A stretch of DNA of 64,000 bases, taken from positions 1,236 to 65,235 of the forward strand of contig JAHFNH010000004.1 of the NCBI GenBank assembly GCA_023267435.1, written 5' to 3'. The position numbers and the translations under genes are program-made. The DNA comes from Candidatus Nomurabacteria bacterium. Its GTDB lineage: Bacteria > Patescibacteriota > Minisyncoccia > Phycocordibacterales > UBA9973. The notes under the pieces were generated by a model, which saw only the letters and a program-made list of their open reading frames with translations, was not told the origin of the DNA and did not search any database. Every line of letters starts with the position of its first letter. Position 1 is the first letter of the stretch. This document shows, in pieces, positions 1 to 53,866 of this stretch.

Positions 1-204
1 GCTCGTGGAATAATTCAATTTGAAAAATGTCCCAATCCTAATTTATTAGGATTGTGGGCCTCGCCTCAAGCGAGGTTCAAAGAAATTTAATTTATTAAAC
101 TTCTGGATTTATTGAGTCGGTATTGTGTCGCTCAATTGACGACACAATAGTTTGCTTGAACTTAAAACAATCTGACAAGCGTGGAAAGACATGCACCAAA
201 AAAG

Positions 205-237
205 TTTCCGCCTCTACGGCGGATCAGCCGATGAGGC
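205..237. repeat. GC-rich hairpin repeat (HR family) copy 1: tttccgcctctacggcggatcagccgatgaggc
   Basis: Near-identical to 32726-32758 and the reverse complement of 53834-53866. Folds as a nested stem-loop gcctc/gaggc with an inner cggcg/cgccg stem. Confidence 0.7.
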
Positions 238-280
238 TGAAAGGAACGAAACAAAACAAAGCACAGCAAACTCCTAAAAA

Positions 281-12383: not shown

Positions 12384-12519
12384 CGTAGAATTGTTTTTAT
12401 CTGTGGCGGGTTATCGCACTCACATAGGCACATATGTTGGAGGTTAGCCATAACCCGCCTCAAATGAAAGCAATTTTTAAAAAAACTACATTAAAGTAAA
12501 ACTTAATGTAGTTTTTTTA
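12384..12519 (+). ncRNA. candidate small RNA (~135 nt) with a 10-bp long-range stem (ggcgggttat...ataacccgcc) and an intrinsic terminator
   Basis: The promoter-to-terminator unit has no ORF. The inverted repeat at 12406-12460 encloses a 35-nt loop. Terminator ctacattaaagtaaaacttaatgtag plus T-run at 12486-12519. Confidence 0.35.
12486..12519 (+). terminator. Rho-independent terminator
   Basis: ctacattaaagt-aaaa-cttaatgtag followed by a 7-T run. Confidence 0.7.
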
Positions 12520-12774
12520 TTTTTTATCAAATATATGTTTGATGAAAAAGTTTTTATGATTTTTTATAAAAAATAAAATTATAGAGTTATCCACAGTTTT
12601 TGTTTTAAAAATGTTGTCTTATGGTTTGATATGCGCGATAATTAAATTAGTTCTCCGCAATAATTATTTTGAAAATGTTTTTTACTAAATATTTTTGAGG
12701 TCGTGATTATTGCAAACCAAATTAAAAATTTAATTTTCGCGAAATCTGTTTTTACAGATACAGCGACAAATAAT

Positions 12775-12846: not shown

Positions 12847-12893
12847 TACTCTTTTAAAAAATCTCTCGATGAAAATCGGGGGATTTTTTTATT

Positions 12894-12927
12894 GTGCATC
12901 TTCGGCACATCCGCCGTCGAGGCGGAT
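12894..12927 (+). promoter_or_regulatory. two GC-rich hairpins in the secA leader (tgtgc-atcttcg-gcaca; atccgcc-gtcga-ggcggat), related to the HR hairpin family
   Basis: ccgccgtcgaggcgg resembles ccgcctctacggcgg of the HR repeat. Located 36 nt upstream of the secA ATG. Confidence 0.4.
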
Positions 12928-12962
12928 TTATAATTAATGAAAATTATGTTATTATAGGGGTT

Positions 12963-15404
12963 ATGACATTATTCAGCAAAATTTTCGGGGATACGAGCTC
13001 AAAGTTCATAAAAGATGCTCAAAATATAGTGGAAAAAGTAAATGCCTGGGAGGCTGAAATTTCAAAGTTGCAGGATTTAGATTTTCCAAAAAAAACGCAA
13101 GAGTTTAAAGACAGACTCTTAAAAGATGAAACTTTAGATGATATTTTACCGGAAGCTTTTGCTTTAGTTCGTGAAGCAGGAAAGAGGTGTTTAAACGAGA
13201 GACATTATGATGTTCAGCTTGTTGGAGGCTTGGTTTTACATAAAGGAAAGATTTCTGAGATGAAAACAGGTGAAGGTAAAACTTTAGTTGCAACTTTGCC
13301 AGCATATCTAAATGCATTAACGGGTCTTGGTGTGCATATTGTTACAGTCAATGATTATCTTTCACGCAGAGATGCGGTTTTGATGGGTCAAGTATATAAT
13401 TTTCTCGGTCTTTCTGTTGGCGTTATAAATTCTCAAAATGTTTCTTATTTATATGACGCTAGTCATATTGAAGAAGACAAGGAACGTGACATTATTGGAG
13501 AATTTAAAATTTTTTATGATTTCTTAAAACCATGTTCACGACAGCAAGCTTATGCTGCAGACATTACCTACGGGACAAATCATGAATATGGCTTCGATTA
13601 TTTAAGAGATAATTTAGCGACATCAATAAATGATCTTGTTCAAAGAGAACACAATTTTGCAATCGTTGACGAAGTGGACTCTATTTTAATAGATGAAGCT
13701 CGTACTCCGCTTATTATTTCTTCTGCTTCCGGAGATTCTGAAGATTTTTATGTTAGATTTTATGAAATTGCCAAACAGCTCAAAAGAGATGTTGATTATA
13801 ATGTAGATGAAAAATTAAAGGCGATAACTTTGACTGACGAAGGTATAACTAAAGCAGAAAATTTGCTCGGTATTGAAAATATTTATACCGAAAAGGGTAT
13901 TAAATATGTGCATCATCTAGAGACTGCGGTAAAAGCTCAGGCTATTTTTGAACGTGATAAGGATTATGTTGTGAAAGAAGGTGAAGTGATTATAGTTGAC
14001 CCTTTTACTGGACGTCTTCAACCAGGCAGGCGCTGGTCTGAAGGAATTCACCAGGCTATTGAGGCGAAAGAAGGCGTAAAAATTGAAAAGGAAACACGTT
14101 CGTCTGGATCTATAACTTTCCAAAACTATTTCAGATTTTATAAAAAGTTATCAGGTATGACTGGTACAGCTTTGACTTCCGCGGAAGAATTTTTGAAAGT
14201 TTACGGTTTAGATGTAGTGGTGGTCCCAACTAATCGACCTGTTGTCCGTGCTGATCATTCAGATCTTATTTTCCAGACAGAAAAGGGAAAATTCCAAGCT
14301 ATTGCTAAAAAAGTAAAAGAGTTAAATAGTAAAGGTCAGCCAGTTCTTATTGGTACTATTTCCATTGAAAAGAATGAACTTTTGTCTGTTTACTTAAAAC
14401 AGGAAGGCGTGCCCCATACAATTTTAAATGCAAAAAATCACGAGAGAGAAGGTGAAATTATTGCTCAAGCTGGAAAAAGAGGCGCAGTGACTATTGCTAC
14501 AAACATGGCTGGTCGCGGAATCGACATAAAACTAGGTGGTAATCCAATGATTAAAGAAGAATGTGAAATTGTTAAAGATGCCGGTGGTCTTTTTGTTCTC
14601 GGTACTGAAAGACATGAAGCTCGAAGAATAGACAATCAGTTGAGAGGACGTGCAGGTCGTCAGGGAGATCCTGGTGAAACCCAGTTTTATGTTTCTCTTG
14701 AAGATGATTTGATGCGTATTTTCGGTTCTGAAAGAATAAAAACAATGATGGGACGTTTTGGTATTCCAGAAGAGCAGCCTATAGAGAATCGTTTTATCAA
14801 TAGAACCTTAGAAGGCGCACAAGCTAAAATCGAAGGTTTTCACTTTGATTCTCGTAAAAGTACTCTTGAATATGATGATGTTCTTAATCATCAAAGAGAA
14901 TCTATTTACGAGAGAAGGAGAAAAATGATTCACGCAGACAAGATGGAGATTGAGAATTTACTTCAAAAACTCACAGAAGAAAGAGAAGGTTCAGAAAAAA
15001 CAATAAAAGATAAAAGGGAAAAATTAGGAGACGAGGCTTTCCTTGAGACAGTACGAAGAATTGCATTGTATAGTACAGACGCGCTTTGGATGGAGCATTT
15101 GGAAGCGATGGATTATTTACGTTCATCTGTGAACTTAAGAGCTTACGGTCAGCGTGAACCTATTGTTGAGTATAAAAAAGAAGGGCTTAAAATGTTCAAG
15201 GAAATGGAAGAGGTCTTTGAAGATCAAGTTCTTTCATTAATTGAAACTATTACAGAGCCAGCTAAGCCTGAGAGTGCAGAACCTAAAGAAGTTCTAATCA
15301 CAAGCCATAATGAACCTTCTGAATTTTCTGATACTGAAGCAGGCAGAAATGATCCATGCCCTTGTGGAAGCGGTAAAAAATTCAAGAAGTGTCACGGGCA
15401 GTAA
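12963..15404 (+). CDS. secA: preprotein translocase ATPase SecA
   Basis: MTLFSKIFGD start. DEAD-like motor motifs. C-terminal zinc-binding CPCGSGKKFKKCHG. The track ORF begins at 12894, but the conserved SecA N-terminus starts at Met 12963. Confidence 0.92.
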   Translation: MTLFSKIFGDTSSKFIKDAQNIVEKVNAWEAEISKLQDLDFPKKTQEFKDRLLKDETLDDILPEAFALVREAGKRCLNERHYDVQLVGGLVLHKGKISEMKTGEGKTLVATLPAYLNALTGLGVHIVTVNDYLSRRDAVLMGQVYNFLGLSVGVINSQNVSYLYDASHIEEDKERDIIGEFKIFYDFLKPCSRQQAYAADITYGTNHEYGFDYLRDNLATSINDLVQREHNFAIVDEVDSILIDEARTPLIISSASGDSEDFYVRFYEIAKQLKRDVDYNVDEKLKAITLTDEGITKAENLLGIENIYTEKGIKYVHHLETAVKAQAIFERDKDYVVKEGEVIIVDPFTGRLQPGRRWSEGIHQAIEAKEGVKIEKETRSSGSITFQNYFRFYKKLSGMTGTALTSAEEFLKVYGLDVVVVPTNRPVVRADHSDLIFQTEKGKFQAIAKKVKELNSKGQPVLIGTISIEKNELLSVYLKQEGVPHTILNAKNHEREGEIIAQAGKRGAVTIATNMAGRGIDIKLGGNPMIKEECEIVKDAGGLFVLGTERHEARRIDNQLRGRAGRQGDPGETQFYVSLEDDLMRIFGSERIKTMMGRFGIPEEQPIENRFINRTLEGAQAKIEGFHFDSRKSTLEYDDVLNHQRESIYERRRKMIHADKMEIENLLQKLTEEREGSEKTIKDKREKLGDEAFLETVRRIALYSTDALWMEHLEAMDYLRSSVNLRAYGQREPIVEYKKEGLKMFKEMEEVFEDQVLSLIETITEPAKPESAEPKEVLITSHNEPSEFSDTEAGRNDPCPCGSGKKFKKCHGQ

Positions 15405-32670: not shown

Positions 32671-32679
32671 TGTTATAAT
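32671..32679 (+). promoter_or_regulatory. extended -10 promoter (TGtTATAAT) for the 32787 pilin-like gene
   Basis: Perfect extended -10. The predicted TSS places the HR hairpin in the 5' UTR. Confidence 0.45.
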
Positions 32680-32725: not shown

Positions 32726-32758
32726 TTCCGCCTCTACGGCGGATCGCCGATGAGGCGA
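32726..32758. repeat. HR hairpin repeat copy 2 (ttccgcctctacggcggatcgccgatgaggcga) in the 5' UTR
   Basis: Stem gcctc/gaggc with inner cggcg-gat-cgccg. Lies 28 nt upstream of the ATG at 32787. Confidence 0.7.
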
Positions 32759-32786: not shown

Positions 32787-33182
32787 ATGAAAAAGAAATT
32801 CGCTTCATTAGTCGGTTTAGGTCTAGTTATGTCAGCTCCATTATTAGCTTTCGCTCAAAGTCAGCTTCAAACTACTTGTAGTAATGCGACAGGAACAATC
32901 CAGGGAATAATTTGCGATATCAGTAAAATTCTAAATACTGTTATCCCAGTTATCATCGTCTTGGGTGTTGTTTATTTCGTTTGGGGTGTTGTTACTTATG
33001 TTATCTCCAGTGAAGAGGAAGCAAAAGCAGCTGGTAAAAACAGAATGATTTGGGGAATCATCGGTCTTGTTGTTATTGTATCAATGTGGGGCTTGGTAAA
33101 TATTGTTGTTAATACTTTCGGATTACAGAGTTCTTCCATCCAAGTAAACGTCCCTTGTATTACCGGCACACCTGGCTGTTAA
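32787..33182 (+). CDS. TrbC/VirB2-like small protein, paralog 3
   Basis: Signal (…LLAFAQ). SSEEEAKAAGKNRMIWGIIGLVVIVSMWGLVNIVVNTFGL. Confidence 0.5.
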   Translation: MKKKFASLVGLGLVMSAPLLAFAQSQLQTTCSNATGTIQGIICDISKILNTVIPVIIVLGVVYFVWGVVTYVISSEEEAKAAGKNRMIWGIIGLVVIVSMWGLVNIVVNTFGLQSSSIQVNVPCITGTPGC

Positions 33183-36734: not shown

Positions 36735-36737
36735 AAT

Positions 36738-36916
36738 GTATTAAACTCTAACATTAAAACAGTGCTTACGCACTCCGTCTCGCACAAGGATATTGTGGTC
36801 ACAAGTATTTTTCTACTGAAAAATCTCGCGAAGCCTATCGTATTAATAGGCACCTGTAGACGGCCCGCTCTCGGCACCGTCGTGCCTGCGGCTCGCACAA
36901 AGCATCCCATGCTTTG
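36738..36916 (-). ncRNA. 179-nt highly structured spacer between tRNA-Lys and tRNA-Leu (candidate small RNA)
   Basis: On the minus strand: GCACAAAGCAT-GGG-ATGCTTTGTGC, GGCAC-GACG-GTGCC, CCTAT-TAATACG-ATAGG hairpins. GC-rich relative to surroundings. Confidence 0.3.
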
Positions 36917-53794: not shown

Positions 53795-53833
53795 GGATCT
53801 ATTCGAATGAAGCCCTTGGGCTTTTTTTGTTTA

Positions 53834-53866
53834 TCGCCTCAACGGCGATCCGTCGAAGAGGCGGAA
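53834..53866. repeat. HR hairpin repeat copy 3 (reverse orientation) in the typA leader, preceded by a hairpin plus T-run (53808-53830)
   Basis: tcgcctcaacggcgatccgtcgaagaggcggaa is the reverse complement of copy 2 with a few mismatches. Lies 28 nt upstream of the typA ATG. Confidence 0.65.

What the first reader, a model, noticed from the sequence alone, without database searches (positions are those of the whole stretch)
32726..32758. Recurrent ~33-nt GC-rich hairpin (HR) in 5' leaders and small-RNA positions
The sequence ttccgcctctacggcggatcgccgatgaggcga folds as a nested stem gcctc/gaggc with an inner cggcg-gat-cgccg stem. It occurs (i) here in the predicted 5' UTR of a pilin-like gene, downstream of a TGnTATAAT promoter; (ii) at 205-237 within a structured, terminator-ended region upstream of uvrA; and (iii) in reverse orientation at 53834-53866 in the typA leader. 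A related hairpin (ccgccgtcgaggcgg) precedes secA at 12909-12927. A conserved GC-rich structure at the 5' end of several unrelated mRNAs in an AT-rich genome suggests a shared post-transcriptional regulatory or RNA-stability element, or a REP-like repeat.
Basis: seen in the sequence. Interest (0 to 1): 0.6.

Follow-up and report, generated by a model that had tools for sequence, protein, structure and literature searches.

The report
Mobile double-hairpin repeat of CPR bacteria
The hairpin is real, but it is not a leader-RNA switch: it is one of four copies of a 32-34-base GC-rich mini-palindrome that is scattered through the genomes of Patescibacteria (CPR), inserts even in frame into essential genes, and is physically tied to a tiny GIY-YIG nuclease gene.

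Summary
The window holds exactly four copies (32727-32758 +, 207-240 +, 53834-53865 -, 12893-12926 -) of a 32-34-nt GC-rich pseudo-palindrome; chance predicts none. It is not a window-specific leader hairpin. The same element occurs in about 100 fetched loci from dozens of Patescibacteria (CPR) MAGs. Covariation supports two adjacent hairpins (GCC-TCNNC-GGC, then GCC-GNNGA-GGC), not the nested fold.

Copies occur in several settings:
- in intergenic DNA, in both orientations;
- 1-4 nt before tRNA genes;
- in a 16S rRNA trailer (the copy at 207);
- upstream of a predicted promoter (the copy at 12893);
- in frame inside housekeeping genes such as GyrA, SMC, RNase R, TrmD and GluRS (about one copy in five). 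Orthologues of these genes, including this window's GyrA, show empty A-run sites.

One copy precedes the start of nearly every 86-aa single-domain GIY-YIG nuclease gene found. That gene is itself a cassette inserted at nucleotide 13 of tRNA-Ser.

The closest known systems are Ssn/NTS (GIY-YIG ssDNA nucleases with hairpin repeats) and, by behaviour, REP/RAYT and Rickettsia palindromic elements. My best reading is a mobile, nuclease-associated mini-palindrome. The shared 5'-UTR-regulator idea is not supported; the "REP-like" alternative is. The link to the nuclease rests on association only.

The parts
32727..32758 (+). Copy 1, type A (32 nt core): TCCGCC-TCTAC-GGCGGA + TCGCC-GATGA-GGCGA, flanked by TT...T. 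It lies 28 nt upstream of the ATG of the 131-aa pilin-like ORF (32787) and about 48 nt downstream of TGTTATAAT (32671-32679).
   Evidence: 60.1 bits
32727..32743 (+). Hairpin 1 of copy 1: 6-bp stem TCCGCC/GGCGGA, loop TCTAC.
32744..32758 (+). Hairpin 2 of copy 1: 5-bp stem TCGCC/GGCGA, loop GATGA. The outer pairs of this hairpin covary across the family.
207..240 (+). Copy 2, type B (34 nt): TCCGCC-TCTAC-GGCGGA + TCAGCC-GATGA-GGCTGA. It lies in the 3' trailer of a 16S rRNA gene whose 3' end is at about window position 20. The intrinsic terminator at 277-304 follows. Position and flanks are conserved in L081.
   Evidence: (57.6 bits)
53834..53865 (-). Copy 3, type A, on the minus strand: TCCGCC-TCTTC-GACGGA (one C/A mismatch; a G-T pair on the plus strand) + TCGCC-GTTGA-GGCGA. 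It starts 9 nt after the terminator-like hairpin 53809-53824 and ends 28 nt before the typA ATG (53894).
   Evidence: (52.3 bits)
12893..12926 (-). Copy 4, type B, on the minus strand: TCCGCC-TCGAC-GGCGGA + TGTGCC-GAAGA-TGCACA (one mismatch). It lies between the T-rich terminator-like end of the upstream Lys-rich gene and the -35-like TTTATA (12927) of the predicted secA promoter. L059 has the same arrangement upstream of secA.
   Evidence: (51.5 bits)

Best explanation
The four sites are solo copies of a dispersed repeat family of Patescibacteria (CPR).

Anatomy. The unit is a 32-34-bp GC-rich pseudo-palindrome built from two directly adjacent short hairpins of opposite polarity: T-(0-2 nt)-GCC-TCNNC-GGC-(0-2 nt)-A, followed by T-(0-2 nt)-GCC-GNNGA-GGC-(0-2 nt)-A. 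Either DNA strand, or any transcript, therefore folds into two tandem stem-loops.

Behaviour. The element behaves as a small non-autonomous mobile insertion. At a given orthologous site it is present in some genomes and absent in close relatives. Filled sites differ from empty ones by a 33-nt insertion within an A-run (type A). It survives in frame in surface loops of essential proteins as well as in intergenic DNA.

Likely partner (inferred). Its probable trans-acting partner is an 86-aa single-domain GIY-YIG nuclease. The gene for this nuclease almost always carries one copy of the double hairpin 7-24 nt before its start codon. The gene is itself a cassette inserted after nucleotide 13 of tRNA-Ser genes. 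By analogy with Ssn/NTS and RAYT/REP, the nuclease would recognise the hairpins in single-stranded DNA.

Consequence for this window. The copies are passengers in AT-rich intergenic DNA. Any effect on the neighbouring genes (a stable 5' hairpin, weak terminator-like activity) is incidental and not a shared regulatory programme.

Shown versus inferred. Shown: the repeat family, the tandem-hairpin covariation, the in-frame insertions, the filled/empty sites and the physical linkage to the GIY-YIG/tRNA-Ser cassette. Inferred: that the nuclease acts on the element, that the substrate is ssDNA, and that insertion is an active, enzyme-driven process.
For: (1) Repeat family. In 100 of 101 low-GC loci, the 3' strand of hairpin 2, which the search pattern left free, is complementary to its 5' strand. 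It is complementary in 0 of 13 high-GC chance hits. Most loci come from MAGs labelled Nomura-, Paceibacterota, Saccharibacteria, Magasanik-, Shapiro-, Wildermuth-, Moranii-, Colwell-, Levyi-, Staskawicz- or Zambryskibacteria.

(2) Structure. The two outer pairs of hairpin 2 covary: GC 41 / CG 19 / AU 2 / UA 1, and CG 70 / AU 18 / UA 13 / GC 4. That gives 57 double-change cells against 11.8 in shuffles, with 0 of 500 shuffles reaching the observed value. The nested fold shows no covariation, and its internal-loop dinucleotides are complementary no more often than chance, 8 of 113.

(3) Insertions in genes. 20 of 112 copies have at least 60 in-frame codons on both sides. They lie inside Pfam domain matches of RNase R, TrmD, GluRS, the CCA-adding enzyme, a GT4 glycosyltransferase, a methyltransferase and SMC; two further copies lie near the N-terminus of ArgRS and in the FtsK linker.

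(4) Filled versus empty sites.
- GyrA: L089 carries ...AAA[TCGCC..GGCGGA]A AGA, while this window's GyrA reads GTT AAA AAA GAA.
- RNase R site 1: L022 is filled (AAA + 33 nt + AAT), while L066 is empty (AAA AAT).
- There is a patchwork of presence and absence at RNase R sites 1 and 2, TrmD, SMC and TatD among genomes 60-80% identical at the protein level.
- Only about 5 of 111 SMC orthologues carry the insert, one of them degenerate and two expanded.

(5) Flanks. Type A copies have T at positions -2 and -1 (0.83, 0.98) and at +1 to +3 (0.98, 0.93, 0.81).

(6) Nuclease link. A GIY-YIG (PF01541) 86-aa gene starts next to the element in 16 of 17 strong hits among pattern-found loci. The same holds in 3 of 3 families found starting from the protein. 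The stop codon lies in the D-arm of tRNA-Ser, and 7-25 nt of the tRNA-Ser 5' end (12 nt or more in 9 of 20 cassettes) are repeated upstream of the hairpins. Two cassettes occur in tandem in L122. The AlphaFold model (pLDDT 84) has a GIY-YIG fold.

(7) Precedent. Single-domain GIY-YIG nucleases (Ssn) bind and cut ssDNA next to genome-wide hairpin repeats that flank their genes (PMC11893778).
Against: - No GIY-YIG gene lies in the 64-kb window, and the source genome could not be retrieved. So co-occurrence in this organism is not shown.
- The nuclease link is by adjacency only.
- The element does not match the published SRM consensus (0 of 121).
- The protein's nearest annotated or solved relatives are UPF0213/YazA-type proteins, not a demonstrated Ssn.
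- No very recent insertion (near-identical genomes differing only by the element) was found, so the exact target duplication and the activity of the element are inferred from diverged orthologues.
- Copies at some sites (16S trailer, upstream of secA, tRNA-Gln, TrmD) are shared by different genera. This could mean a host function rather than a hot spot.
- All family statistics come from loci ascertained with a strict pattern. Intact copies are therefore over-represented, and hairpin 1 looks more invariant than it is (one search shows variants).
- Gene calls were crude longest-ORF calls.
Confidence: 0.6

Rival explanations
1. Cis-acting RNA element: the hairpins are transcribed in 5' leaders and act as a shared stability, translation or attenuation signal for unrelated mRNAs.
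For: 69 of 112 family copies have a candidate start codon within 150 nt, with many candidates within 30 nt. In the window the distances to the ATG are 28, 28 and 36 nt. The second hairpin plus its T-rich tail scores as weakly terminator-like at all four copies. Hairpin covariation fits RNA as well as ssDNA.
Against: - Orientation relative to the downstream gene is mixed: 2:2 in the window, 57:22 in the family including the GIY-YIG cassettes.
- One window copy is in a 16S trailer, and one is upstream of the predicted secA promoter.
- At least 18% of copies are inside ORFs.
- Orthologous genes do without it.
- There is no Rfam match.
- Intergenic spacers in these genomes are so short that any intergenic insertion falls near a start codon, and the start-distance measure is biased towards small values.
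Confidence: 0.1
2. Host-serving DNA site: a recognition sequence for a conserved CPR DNA-transaction system. Candidates are control of incoming single-stranded DNA during natural transformation (as proposed for NTS/Ssn in Neisseria), or a chromosome-organisation or recombination site. On this reading selection keeps the sequence constant across the superphylum, and the GIY-YIG gene is a domesticated partner.
For: The core sequence is nearly identical in MAGs labelled as many different CPR classes. Some sites are shared between genera: the 16S trailer in the window and L081, upstream of secA in the window and L059, tRNA-Gln in three loci, and TrmD in four loci. In Neisseria, Ssn/NTS modulates transformation (PMC11893778). 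No copies were found in 2.9 million viral contigs.
Against: - Presence at any one site is sporadic, and copies decay. Examples are the SMC peptide KSPERQSAEEGEM in P0125 and the TrmD copy in L109.
- A host site would not need to arrive as a 33-nt insertion in essential proteins.
- The apparent sequence constancy is inflated by the pattern-based ascertainment.
- No functional data exist.
Confidence: 0.15
3. A mobile or self-propagating palindrome that is unrelated to the GIY-YIG gene. It would spread through another, unseen transposase (for example an HUH/Y1 enzyme) or through replication or repair template switching. The copy in front of the GIY-YIG gene would be one more insertion, or an expression signal of that cassette.
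For: Most copies (96 of 112) are not near a GIY-YIG gene. The window has none. The element also sits directly before tRNA-Gln and tRNA-Ile genes without any nuclease gene. Other palindrome-like in-frame inserts with different sequences occupy the same SMC linker, which suggests a general tolerance or mechanism.
Against: - The double hairpin is present at the same place and in the same orientation in essentially every cassette examined, across distant lineages and two GIY-YIG paralogues. One chance insertion would not be kept like this.
- No other gene recurs next to the element in about 780 kb of flanks, but this was judged by inspection only, not by a systematic scan.
Confidence: 0.13

Closest known systems
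Ssn nucleases and their NTS/SRM hairpin repeats (Chenal et al., Nat Commun 2025, PMC11893778)
   Same: A roughly 90-aa single-domain GIY-YIG protein whose gene is physically linked to a 20-50-nt GC-rich hairpin repeat that is also dispersed through the genome. A short conserved sequence containing GTC..CAT lies 5' of the gene-linked hairpin here (GGTCGCAT; compare CGTCAT in NTS). The authors themselves note the IS-like architecture.
   Different: - The CPR element is a doublet of two inverted hairpins and does not match the SRM search sequence (0 of 121).
- It flanks the gene only on the 5' side; the 3' side is tRNA-Ser.
- At least 18% of copies are inside genes, against 2% reported for NTS.
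- CPR is not mentioned in the paper.
- Membership of the protein in cd10448 could not be tested. Its nearest solved or annotated relatives are UPF0213/YazA.
REP / REPIN elements and RAYT transposases
   Same: Short GC-rich imperfect palindromes in many copies. The mobile unit is a pair of inverted hairpins (REPIN). A single-copy nuclease or transposase gene is flanked by the repeat. Some positions are conserved between related genomes.
   Different: There is no GTAG or CGTC tag. The associated protein is GIY-YIG, not an HUH/Y1 enzyme. The two hairpins abut without a spacer. Copies are frequently intragenic and in frame.
Rickettsia palindromic elements (RPE), and GC clusters / 'byp' elements of yeast mitochondria (own knowledge)
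   Same: Palindromic GC-rich mini-insertions in AT-rich, reduced genomes. They persist in frame inside conserved protein-coding genes and add a short peptide in tolerant loops.
   Different: RPEs are about 100-150 bp and confined to Rickettsia. Mitochondrial byps are skipped by the ribosome and need not be in frame. Here the insert is 33 or 36 nt, the reading frames stay open, and a nuclease gene is linked.
IS200/IS605-type single-strand transposition
   Same: Hairpin recognition on single strands. Insertion occurs next to a short specific sequence, with the same short sequence at the far end of the element: the tRNA-Ser 5' end ...GTCGCAT flanks the hairpin + GIY-YIG cassette on both sides.
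   Different: No Y1 transposase was seen. The chemistry of GIY-YIG (hydrolytic, with no covalent intermediate) does not by itself rejoin DNA. This is purely an architectural analogy.
Free-standing GIY-YIG homing endonuclease genes near tRNA genes (e.g. T4 SegB, PMC2330249)
   Same: A GIY-YIG gene lodged in or next to tRNA genes, with site-specific placement.
   Different: Homing endonucleases carry a DNA-binding domain and are more than 200 aa; this protein is the bare 86-aa catalytic domain. It also comes with a genome-wide repeat.

Membership tests
Ssn / SRM system | The partner is a single-domain GIY-YIG protein of about 90-100 aa. | tested here: met
   86-88 aa, with PF01541 over residues 1-71. 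GIY-YIG fold, pLDDT 84; Foldseek hits to UPF0213, Slx1, UvrC and I-TevI.
Ssn / SRM system | The protein belongs to CDD cd10448, or is a homologue of N. meningitidis SsnA (E<1e-10). | not testable with these tools
   No CDD library or SsnA sequence was available. The nearest relatives found are UPF0213 BH0048 (E 3.5e-7) and YazA on plasmids. The afdb50 library was unavailable.
Ssn / SRM system | Hairpin repeats flank the nuclease gene. | tested here: met
   On the 5' side only: 16 of 17 strong hits and 3 of 3 protein-first families. The 3' side is tRNA-Ser.
Ssn / SRM system | The repeat matches the SRM search sequence HGTCWYN(0-2)YYVSBRHN(0-5)WNVSBRGN(0-2)RNCYNB. | tested here: not met
   0 of 121 copies with 15-nt flanks match on either strand. 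The NTS control matches.
Ssn / SRM system | Tens to hundreds of copies per genome. | tested here: inconclusive
   4 copies in 64 kb here. Up to 9 loci from one MAG in a truncated scan. No whole genome could be counted.
Ssn / SRM system | Specific binding and cleavage of ssDNA (not dsDNA or RNA) next to the hairpin. | not testable with these tools
   Needs biochemistry.
REP / REPIN-RAYT | A 20-40-nt GC-rich imperfect palindrome, dispersed, often as an inverted doublet. | tested here: met
REP / REPIN-RAYT | A conserved GTAG or CGTC tag at one end (PMC3733652 abstract). | tested here: not met
   Flank profiles show only a T-run for type A and no conserved tag for type B.
REP / REPIN-RAYT | An associated Y1 (HUH) RAYT gene flanked by the repeats. 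| not tested
   Flanks were not scanned systematically with a Y1 profile. The only gene seen recurring next to the element was GIY-YIG.
REP / REPIN-RAYT | Extragenic location. | tested here: not met
   20 of 112 copies are deep inside ORFs, within Pfam domains.
Rickettsia palindromic elements | In-frame insertion into conserved protein genes. | tested here: met
   GyrA, SMC, RNase R, TrmD, GluRS, ArgRS, CCA-adding enzyme and others.
Rickettsia palindromic elements | A sequence family of about 100-150 bp specific to Rickettsia (own knowledge). | tested here: not met
   The unit is 32-34 nt and is found in MAGs labelled Patescibacteria. No sequence comparison with RPEs was made.
Cis-regulatory 5'-UTR RNA motif | Constant position in the leader and fixed orientation relative to the regulated gene. 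| tested here: not met
Cis-regulatory 5'-UTR RNA motif | Match to a curated RNA family. | tested here: not met
   Rfam at gathering threshold finds only tRNAs. An E-value search of positions 1-720 finds only noise.
Intrinsic terminator | A GC-rich hairpin immediately followed by a U-run, at gene ends. | tested here: inconclusive
   Hairpin 2 with an interrupted T-rich tail passes a lax scan at all four copies. But copies also lie inside ORFs, and canonical terminators already precede copy 3 and follow copy 2.

The most novel reading that the evidence does not exclude
The bare 86-aa GIY-YIG domain is the mobilising enzyme of a previously undescribed class of single-strand mini-transposon (or homing system) that is ancestral to, or has spread through, the whole CPR radiation. 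On this reading its double hairpin is both the end of the autonomous tRNA-Ser-targeting cassette and a non-autonomous 33-nt element. That element writes 11-residue peptides into essential proteins such as GyrA, SMC, RNase R and aminoacyl-tRNA synthetases. GIY-YIG would then join DDE, HUH, serine and tyrosine enzymes as a transposition catalyst in bacteria.
Probability: 0.3. Interest if true: 0.8.

Novelty: new variant of a known kind. Interest (0 to 1): 0.62.

Why it matters
If the reading holds, it has four consequences.
- CPR bacteria have among the smallest and supposedly most streamlined genomes, yet they carry a superphylum-wide selfish or semi-domesticated repeat. It reshapes intergenic regions and inserts short peptides into core replication, translation and chromosome-segregation proteins. 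This matters for annotation, because GC-rich 11-codon blocks and spurious ORF extensions appear. It also matters for phylogenetics of CPR marker proteins, and for reading 5' UTRs in these genomes.
- It would extend the recently discovered Ssn idea (tiny GIY-YIG ssDNA nucleases paired with hairpin repeats) to a new repeat architecture and a new superphylum.
- It provides a clean natural cassette (hairpins + nuclease + a rebuilt tRNA-Ser 5' end) in which the open question "are these systems mobile, and how?" becomes directly testable.
- These organisms depend on DNA uptake, so a nuclease that cuts hairpin-tagged single strands could also bear on how they handle incoming DNA.

Tried and rejected
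- **Nested fold as the selected structure.** It is pairable in 97% of cells but shows no covariation, and its internal-loop dinucleotides are not complementary.
- **Known RNA family.** Rfam at gathering threshold and by E-value gave nothing.
- **Small ribozyme (hammerhead-like GAUGA) and Shine-Dalgarno sequestration (GAGG).** Dropped by inspection. GAUGA is only a variable hairpin loop. The 16S 3' end of this lineage appears to lack CCUCC.
- **DNA-uptake-sequence idea.** The copy density is far too low, and copies arrive as insertions rather than by point mutation.
- **SRM consensus of the Ssn paper.** 0 of 121 copies match.
- **Placing the GIY-YIG protein relative to Ssn.** PDB sequence and fold searches and a plasmid tblastn return only UPF0213/YazA, Slx1, UvrC and I-TevI. 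NCBIfam returned only a sub-threshold hit to a group I intron endonuclease model. The afdb50 library was not available.
- **Recovering the source contig, to look for a GIY-YIG cassette in the same genome.** Three look-ups by exact protein failed.
- **Orthology of the typA-upstream copy with L017.** I assumed it, then tested it. The L017 ORF is not TypA, so the claim was withdrawn.
- **Phage carriage.** There were 0 matches in IMG/VR.
- **'Purifying selection' inferred from identical stems in four SMC genes.** Withdrawn as ascertainment bias once 111 SMC orthologues showed that most lack the insert and some copies decay.
- **Literature searches for a prior description in CPR.** None was found in the held library.
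Full report
**1. Checking the observation**

The other sites it named are also real:
- 205-237 is a plus-strand copy whose core runs 207-240. It is two bases longer, and the two extra bases (A and T) pair with each other.
- 53834-53866 is a minus-strand copy with three substitutions.
- The "related hairpin" at 12909-12927 is the better-conserved half of a complete fourth copy on the minus strand, 12893-12926.

Dinucleotide-preserving shuffles of the window gave no match to either search pattern. A covariance model built later from 109 family members finds exactly these four places at 51-60 bits; the next best hit in the window scores 8 bits. Every copy folds far better than its shuffles, with z between -3.1 and -4.6 on either strand.

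**2. Which fold**

The element is a palindrome of palindromes: TCCGCC-TCNNC-GGCGGA followed by T(N0-2)GCC-GNNGA-GGC(N0-2)A. It can fold in two ways. The other is two adjacent hairpins. The minimum-energy prediction is nested for copies 1 and 3 and tandem for copies 2 and 4.

On an alignment of 109 distinct copies, the two outer pairs of the second hairpin covary strongly. One pair shows GC 41, CG 19, AU 2, UA 1; the other shows CG 70, AU 18, UA 13, GC 4. That gives 57 double-change cells against 11.8 in shuffles, and none of 500 shuffles reaches the observed value. Sliding the partners destroys the signal.

The nested fold is pairable in 97% of cells, but only because its columns never vary. 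It shows no compensatory change, and one of its pairs is broken or wobble in 39 sequences. The two variable dinucleotides that would face each other in the nested fold are complementary in 8 of 113 copies, which is the chance level. The selected structure is therefore the tandem pair of hairpins.

Because the second hairpin is the reverse complement of the first hairpin type, both DNA strands, and transcripts of either strand, form one TCNNC-loop hairpin and one GNNGA-loop hairpin.

**3. It is a family, not a local feature**

I scanned one genome per prokaryotic species for TCCGCCTCNNCGNCGGATN{1,3}GCCGNNGA.

The pattern left the 3' strand of hairpin 2 free, which provides an internal control. 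That strand is complementary to the 5' strand in 100 of 101 low-GC loci. It is complementary in none of the 13 high-GC hits (Streptomyces, Arthrobacter and others), which are chance matches.

Most bona fide loci come from MAGs labelled Patescibacteria/CPR of many classes: Nomura-, Paceibacterota, Saccharibacteria, Magasanik-, Shapiro-, Wildermuth-, Moranii-, Colwell-, Levyi-, Staskawicz- and Zambryskibacteria. About a dozen low-GC MAGs are labelled "uncultured Gammaproteobacteria"; I did not verify that label.

Several MAGs contribute up to nine loci. The model finds about 125 sites in 710 kb of these loci, including diverged and single-hairpin variants. Nothing was found in 2.9 million viral contigs. 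Rfam has no matching family. By nucleotide similarity of secA and uvrA (about 70-72%), the window itself is from a Paceibacteria/Nomurabacteria-like organism.

**4. Anatomy and subtypes**

There are two main classes:
- Type A: second stem TCGCC/GGCGA, 32-nt core, 42 of 113 copies. It is flanked almost invariably by TT on one side and TTT on the other.
- Type B: a 6-7-bp second stem, usually TGCGCC, TCAGCC or TGTGCC. Its flanks are looser.

Window copies 1 and 3 are type A; copies 2 and 4 are type B. The apparent invariance of the first hairpin is partly imposed by my search pattern. A looser search finds CCCGCC, TCTGCC, TGCGCC and other versions.

**5. Where copies sit**

Among 112 pattern-defined sites:
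- 20 have at least 60 in-frame codons on both sides;
- 16 are next to the start of a GIY-YIG gene;
- 4 are within 12 nt of a tRNA gene (tRNA-Gln three times, tRNA-Ile once);
- 72 are otherwise intergenic or at ORF edges.

The intragenic copies are not artefacts of ORF calling. They lie inside Pfam domain matches of RNase R, TrmD, GluRS, the CCA-adding enzyme, a GT4 glycosyltransferase, an RNA methyltransferase and SMC, and also in GyrA, the ArgRS N-terminal domain, the FtsK linker and the S1 tail. They add peptides such as KSPxRRSAxEAE, IASSAIRRGGGK or VRLxGGSADEAE, depending on the frame.

Type A copies in genes are always in one orientation, 14 of 14, with the A-flanked strand as the coding strand. 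I attribute this to insertion into A-runs (Lys/Glu-rich loops), to tolerance of hydrophilic peptides, or to both. This is inference.

**6. Evidence that copies are insertions that come and go**

- This window's GyrA is 67% identical to that of L089 but lacks the 9-11 residues encoded by the element. The empty site reads GTT AAA AAA GAA. The filled site reads GTC AAA [TCGCC...GGCGGA] A AGA.
- At RNase R site 1 the comparison is cleaner. L066 has TCC AAA AAT. L022 has CCC AAA + 33 nt + AAT, which is the 32-nt core plus one A inserted in an A-run, so the frame is preserved.
- Across RNase R sites 1 and 2, TrmD, SMC and TatD, related genomes show a patchwork of filled, empty, degenerate and expanded (three-hairpin) states.
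- Of 111 SMC orthologues (62-85% identical to the query segment), two carry an intact insert, two an expanded one and one a decayed one. The rest have unrelated Lys/Glu-rich linkers.

This corrected an earlier impression of mine. The identical stems in four SMC genes looked like purifying selection, but those four loci were ascertained by the intact pattern.

**7. The linked gene**

In L004 the element is followed after 9 nt by an 86-aa ORF. The ORF's last codons and stop (GGAGAGGTCGCATAG) are the first bases of a tRNA gene, and GGAGAGGTCGCAT is repeated just upstream of the hairpins.

The ORF is a GIY-YIG domain and nothing more: PF01541, E about 1e-13 to 1e-17. The AlphaFold model has pLDDT 84, and its best structural matches are UPF0213, Slx1, UvrC and I-TevI.

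A profile search of all six-frame ORFs in the loci finds 17 strong members, and 16 have the double hairpin at their start. I also approached from the protein side. Homologues of at least 67% identity were abundant. All three families whose contigs I fetched show the same layout.

The layout is [7-25 nt of the tRNA-Ser 5' end...GGTCGCAT] - [TGCGCC-TCNNC-GGCGCA][TCCGCC-GNNGA-GGCGGA] - 7 to 24 nt - ATG...GIY-YIG...TAG inside the D-arm of tRNA-Ser (anticodons gga, tga, gct, act). L122 carries two such cassettes in tandem with different GIY-YIG paralogues.

The cassette therefore looks like a site-specific insertion after nucleotide 13 of tRNA-Ser that rebuilds the tRNA's 5' end. No GIY-YIG gene is present in the 64-kb window. 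The source genome could not be retrieved for a wider look.

**8. The four window copies in context**

- **Copy 2 (207-240).** It lies about 185 nt after the 3' end of a 16S rRNA gene. Rfam places the SSU 3' end at L081:3257, which aligns to about window position 20. It also lies about 37 nt before the terminator at 277-304. Position and flanks are conserved in L081, so this copy is in the rRNA trailer.
- **Copy 4 (12893-12926).** It lies between the T-rich terminator-like end of the upstream gene and a predicted extended -10 promoter (TTTATA-17-TATTAT, 12927-12955). The -10 hexamer ends 7 nt before the secA ATG. This copy is therefore upstream of the promoter. L059 has the same arrangement.
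- **Copy 3 (53834-53865).** It is antisense to typA. It starts 9 nt after a terminator-like hairpin and ends 28 nt before the ATG.
- **Copy 1 (32727-32758).** It is the only copy that plausibly lies in a leader. TGTTATAAT is at 32671-32679 and the ATG at 32787.

In each copy the 3' hairpin plus its T-rich flank passes a lax terminator scan. Local effects on transcription are therefore possible, but the contexts have nothing in common beyond being AT-rich intergenic DNA. Family-wide, many copies lie within 30 nt of a candidate start codon. However, spacers are short in these genomes, my start calls are biased towards short distances, and orientation is mixed.

**9. Comparison with what is known**

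The closest described system is Ssn/NTS (PMC11893778). In that system, 94-aa single-domain GIY-YIG proteins of CDD family cd10448 bind and cut single-stranded DNA just upstream of a hairpin repeat. The repeat flanks their gene and occurs in hundreds of copies. The authors note the IS-like layout and the parallel with REP/RAYT.

The shared features are the bare GIY-YIG domain, the gene-linked hairpin repeat, genome-wide dispersal, and a GTC..CAT motif 5' of the gene-linked hairpin.

The differences are these:
- the CPR repeat does not match the published SRM search sequence (0 of 121; the NTS control matches);
- it is a doublet of inverted hairpins;
- it flanks the gene on one side only;
- it is often intragenic, whereas NTS is intragenic in 2% of cases.

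I could not test whether the protein falls in cd10448. Its nearest solved or annotated relatives are UPF0213/YazA-type proteins.

In behaviour it resembles REP/REPIN elements, but it lacks the GTAG/CGTC tag, no Y1 gene was seen, and it is not extragenic. It also resembles Rickettsia palindromic elements in its in-frame insertions, but it is far shorter and occurs in a different lineage. I found no description of this element in CPR in the held literature. I therefore file it as a new variant of a known kind (nuclease-associated hairpin repeats), not as a demonstrated member of the Ssn/SRM family.

**10. Mechanism, with status of each step**

Shown:
- a dispersed family of double hairpins with covariation;
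- sporadic presence at orthologous sites;
- a 33-nt in-frame insertion in A-runs;
- decay and expansion of copies;
- constant linkage of one copy to a GIY-YIG/tRNA-Ser cassette.

Inferred:
- the GIY-YIG protein recognises the hairpins as single-stranded DNA, by analogy with Ssn;
- it promotes spread or maintenance of both the cassette and the solo copies;
- the window copies are passengers without a common regulatory role.

I put 0.6 on this package. The rivals are a leader-RNA regulator (0.1), a host-serving DNA site such as control of transforming single strands (0.15), and a mobile palindrome unrelated to the GIY-YIG gene (0.13). None is excluded, and the report states what would decide between them.

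**11. Caveats**

- All family statistics derive from loci found with a strict pattern, in a scan that was truncated. This favours intact copies and hides variation in the first hairpin.
- Gene calls were longest-ORF heuristics.
- MAG taxonomic labels were taken as given.
- Filled/empty comparisons are between diverged orthologues, so exact target duplications are not established.
- One assumption of mine, that L017 carried TypA, was tested and found wrong. It is not used.

Noticed in passing
window 1-20 (and L081 3257-3290, minus strand): The window starts about 20 nt before the 3' end of a 16S rRNA gene. The terminal sequence reads ...GGTCGTGGAATAATTCAATT where E. coli has ...GGTTGGATCACCTCCTTA, so the CCUCC anti-Shine-Dalgarno seems to be absent in this lineage. 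No 23S gene follows (uvrA does), so the 16S gene is unlinked.
   Followed up: partly
window 12385-12520 (+); L059 3168-3246: A candidate small RNA. A 79-nt segment (12391-12469) is 91% identical to L059. It has a long stem (GCGGGTTATCGC...GCCATAACCCGC), is preceded by TGTGATATAAT and is followed by a hairpin with a T-run. Rfam gives only noise. In L059 it directly abuts the double-hairpin element.
   Followed up: partly
window 36735-36915 (-): An unusually GC-rich spacer of about 180 nt lies between tRNA-Lys and tRNA-Leu. It is covered only by a spurious 80-aa ORF that overlaps both tRNAs. It is possibly a structured RNA or a remnant of an inserted element. There is no GIY-YIG gene there.
   Followed up: no
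window 12927-12965 (+): The predicted extended -10 promoter of secA (TTTATA-17-TG-TATTAT) ends 7 nt before the ATG. This suggests a leaderless or nearly leaderless secA mRNA, consistent with the missing anti-SD.
   Followed up: no
proteins P0131, P0139, P0171, P0186 and P0136, P0155, P0162, P0163 (SMC linker): The same SMC loop that takes the double hairpin carries other recurrent inserts in other CPR genomes (REKVEPLxxSRFDLEE; PADAxxRYAESFGEA). They look like translations of different palindromic elements. CPR genomes may host several families of in-frame mini-insertions.
   Followed up: no
L056 2825-2886; proteins P0121, P0167: These are composite copies with a third hairpin: TCGCC..GGCGA + TCCGCC..GGCGGA + CAAG + TCCGCC..GGCGGA. 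They encode IASTAIRRIGGQVRRGGGK in RNase R and KSPRRRSAALADKSAEEAE in SMC. This shows that units can duplicate or insert into one another.
   Followed up: partly
L118 and L119 4232-5842 (-), versus sibling contigs L115 and L116: Immediately downstream of the GIY-YIG/tRNA-Ser cassette, near-identical contigs differ. Some carry a 536-aa large serine recombinase and others carry unrelated genes. The same tRNA-Ser therefore appears to be an integration hot spot for a larger element.
   Followed up: no
L004 1446-1462 (-); L097 2084-2100 (+): Single hairpin units of the same type (TCCGCC-TCATC-GGCGGA; TCTGCC-TCTAC-GGCAGA) lie inside the tmRNA match of L004 and directly before GAGGAAAGTCCG (an RNase P RNA-like CR-I) in L097. 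Either the unit also invades stable-RNA genes, or this hairpin type is a native building block of CPR RNAs.
   Followed up: no
L004, L034, L037, L040, L045, L050, L054, L057, L095, L099, L107, L111: MAGs titled 'uncultured Gammaproteobacteria' (38-50% GC) carry bona fide copies, and two of them (L004, L057) also carry the CPR-type GIY-YIG cassette. The taxonomic labels of these bins are probably wrong.
   Followed up: no
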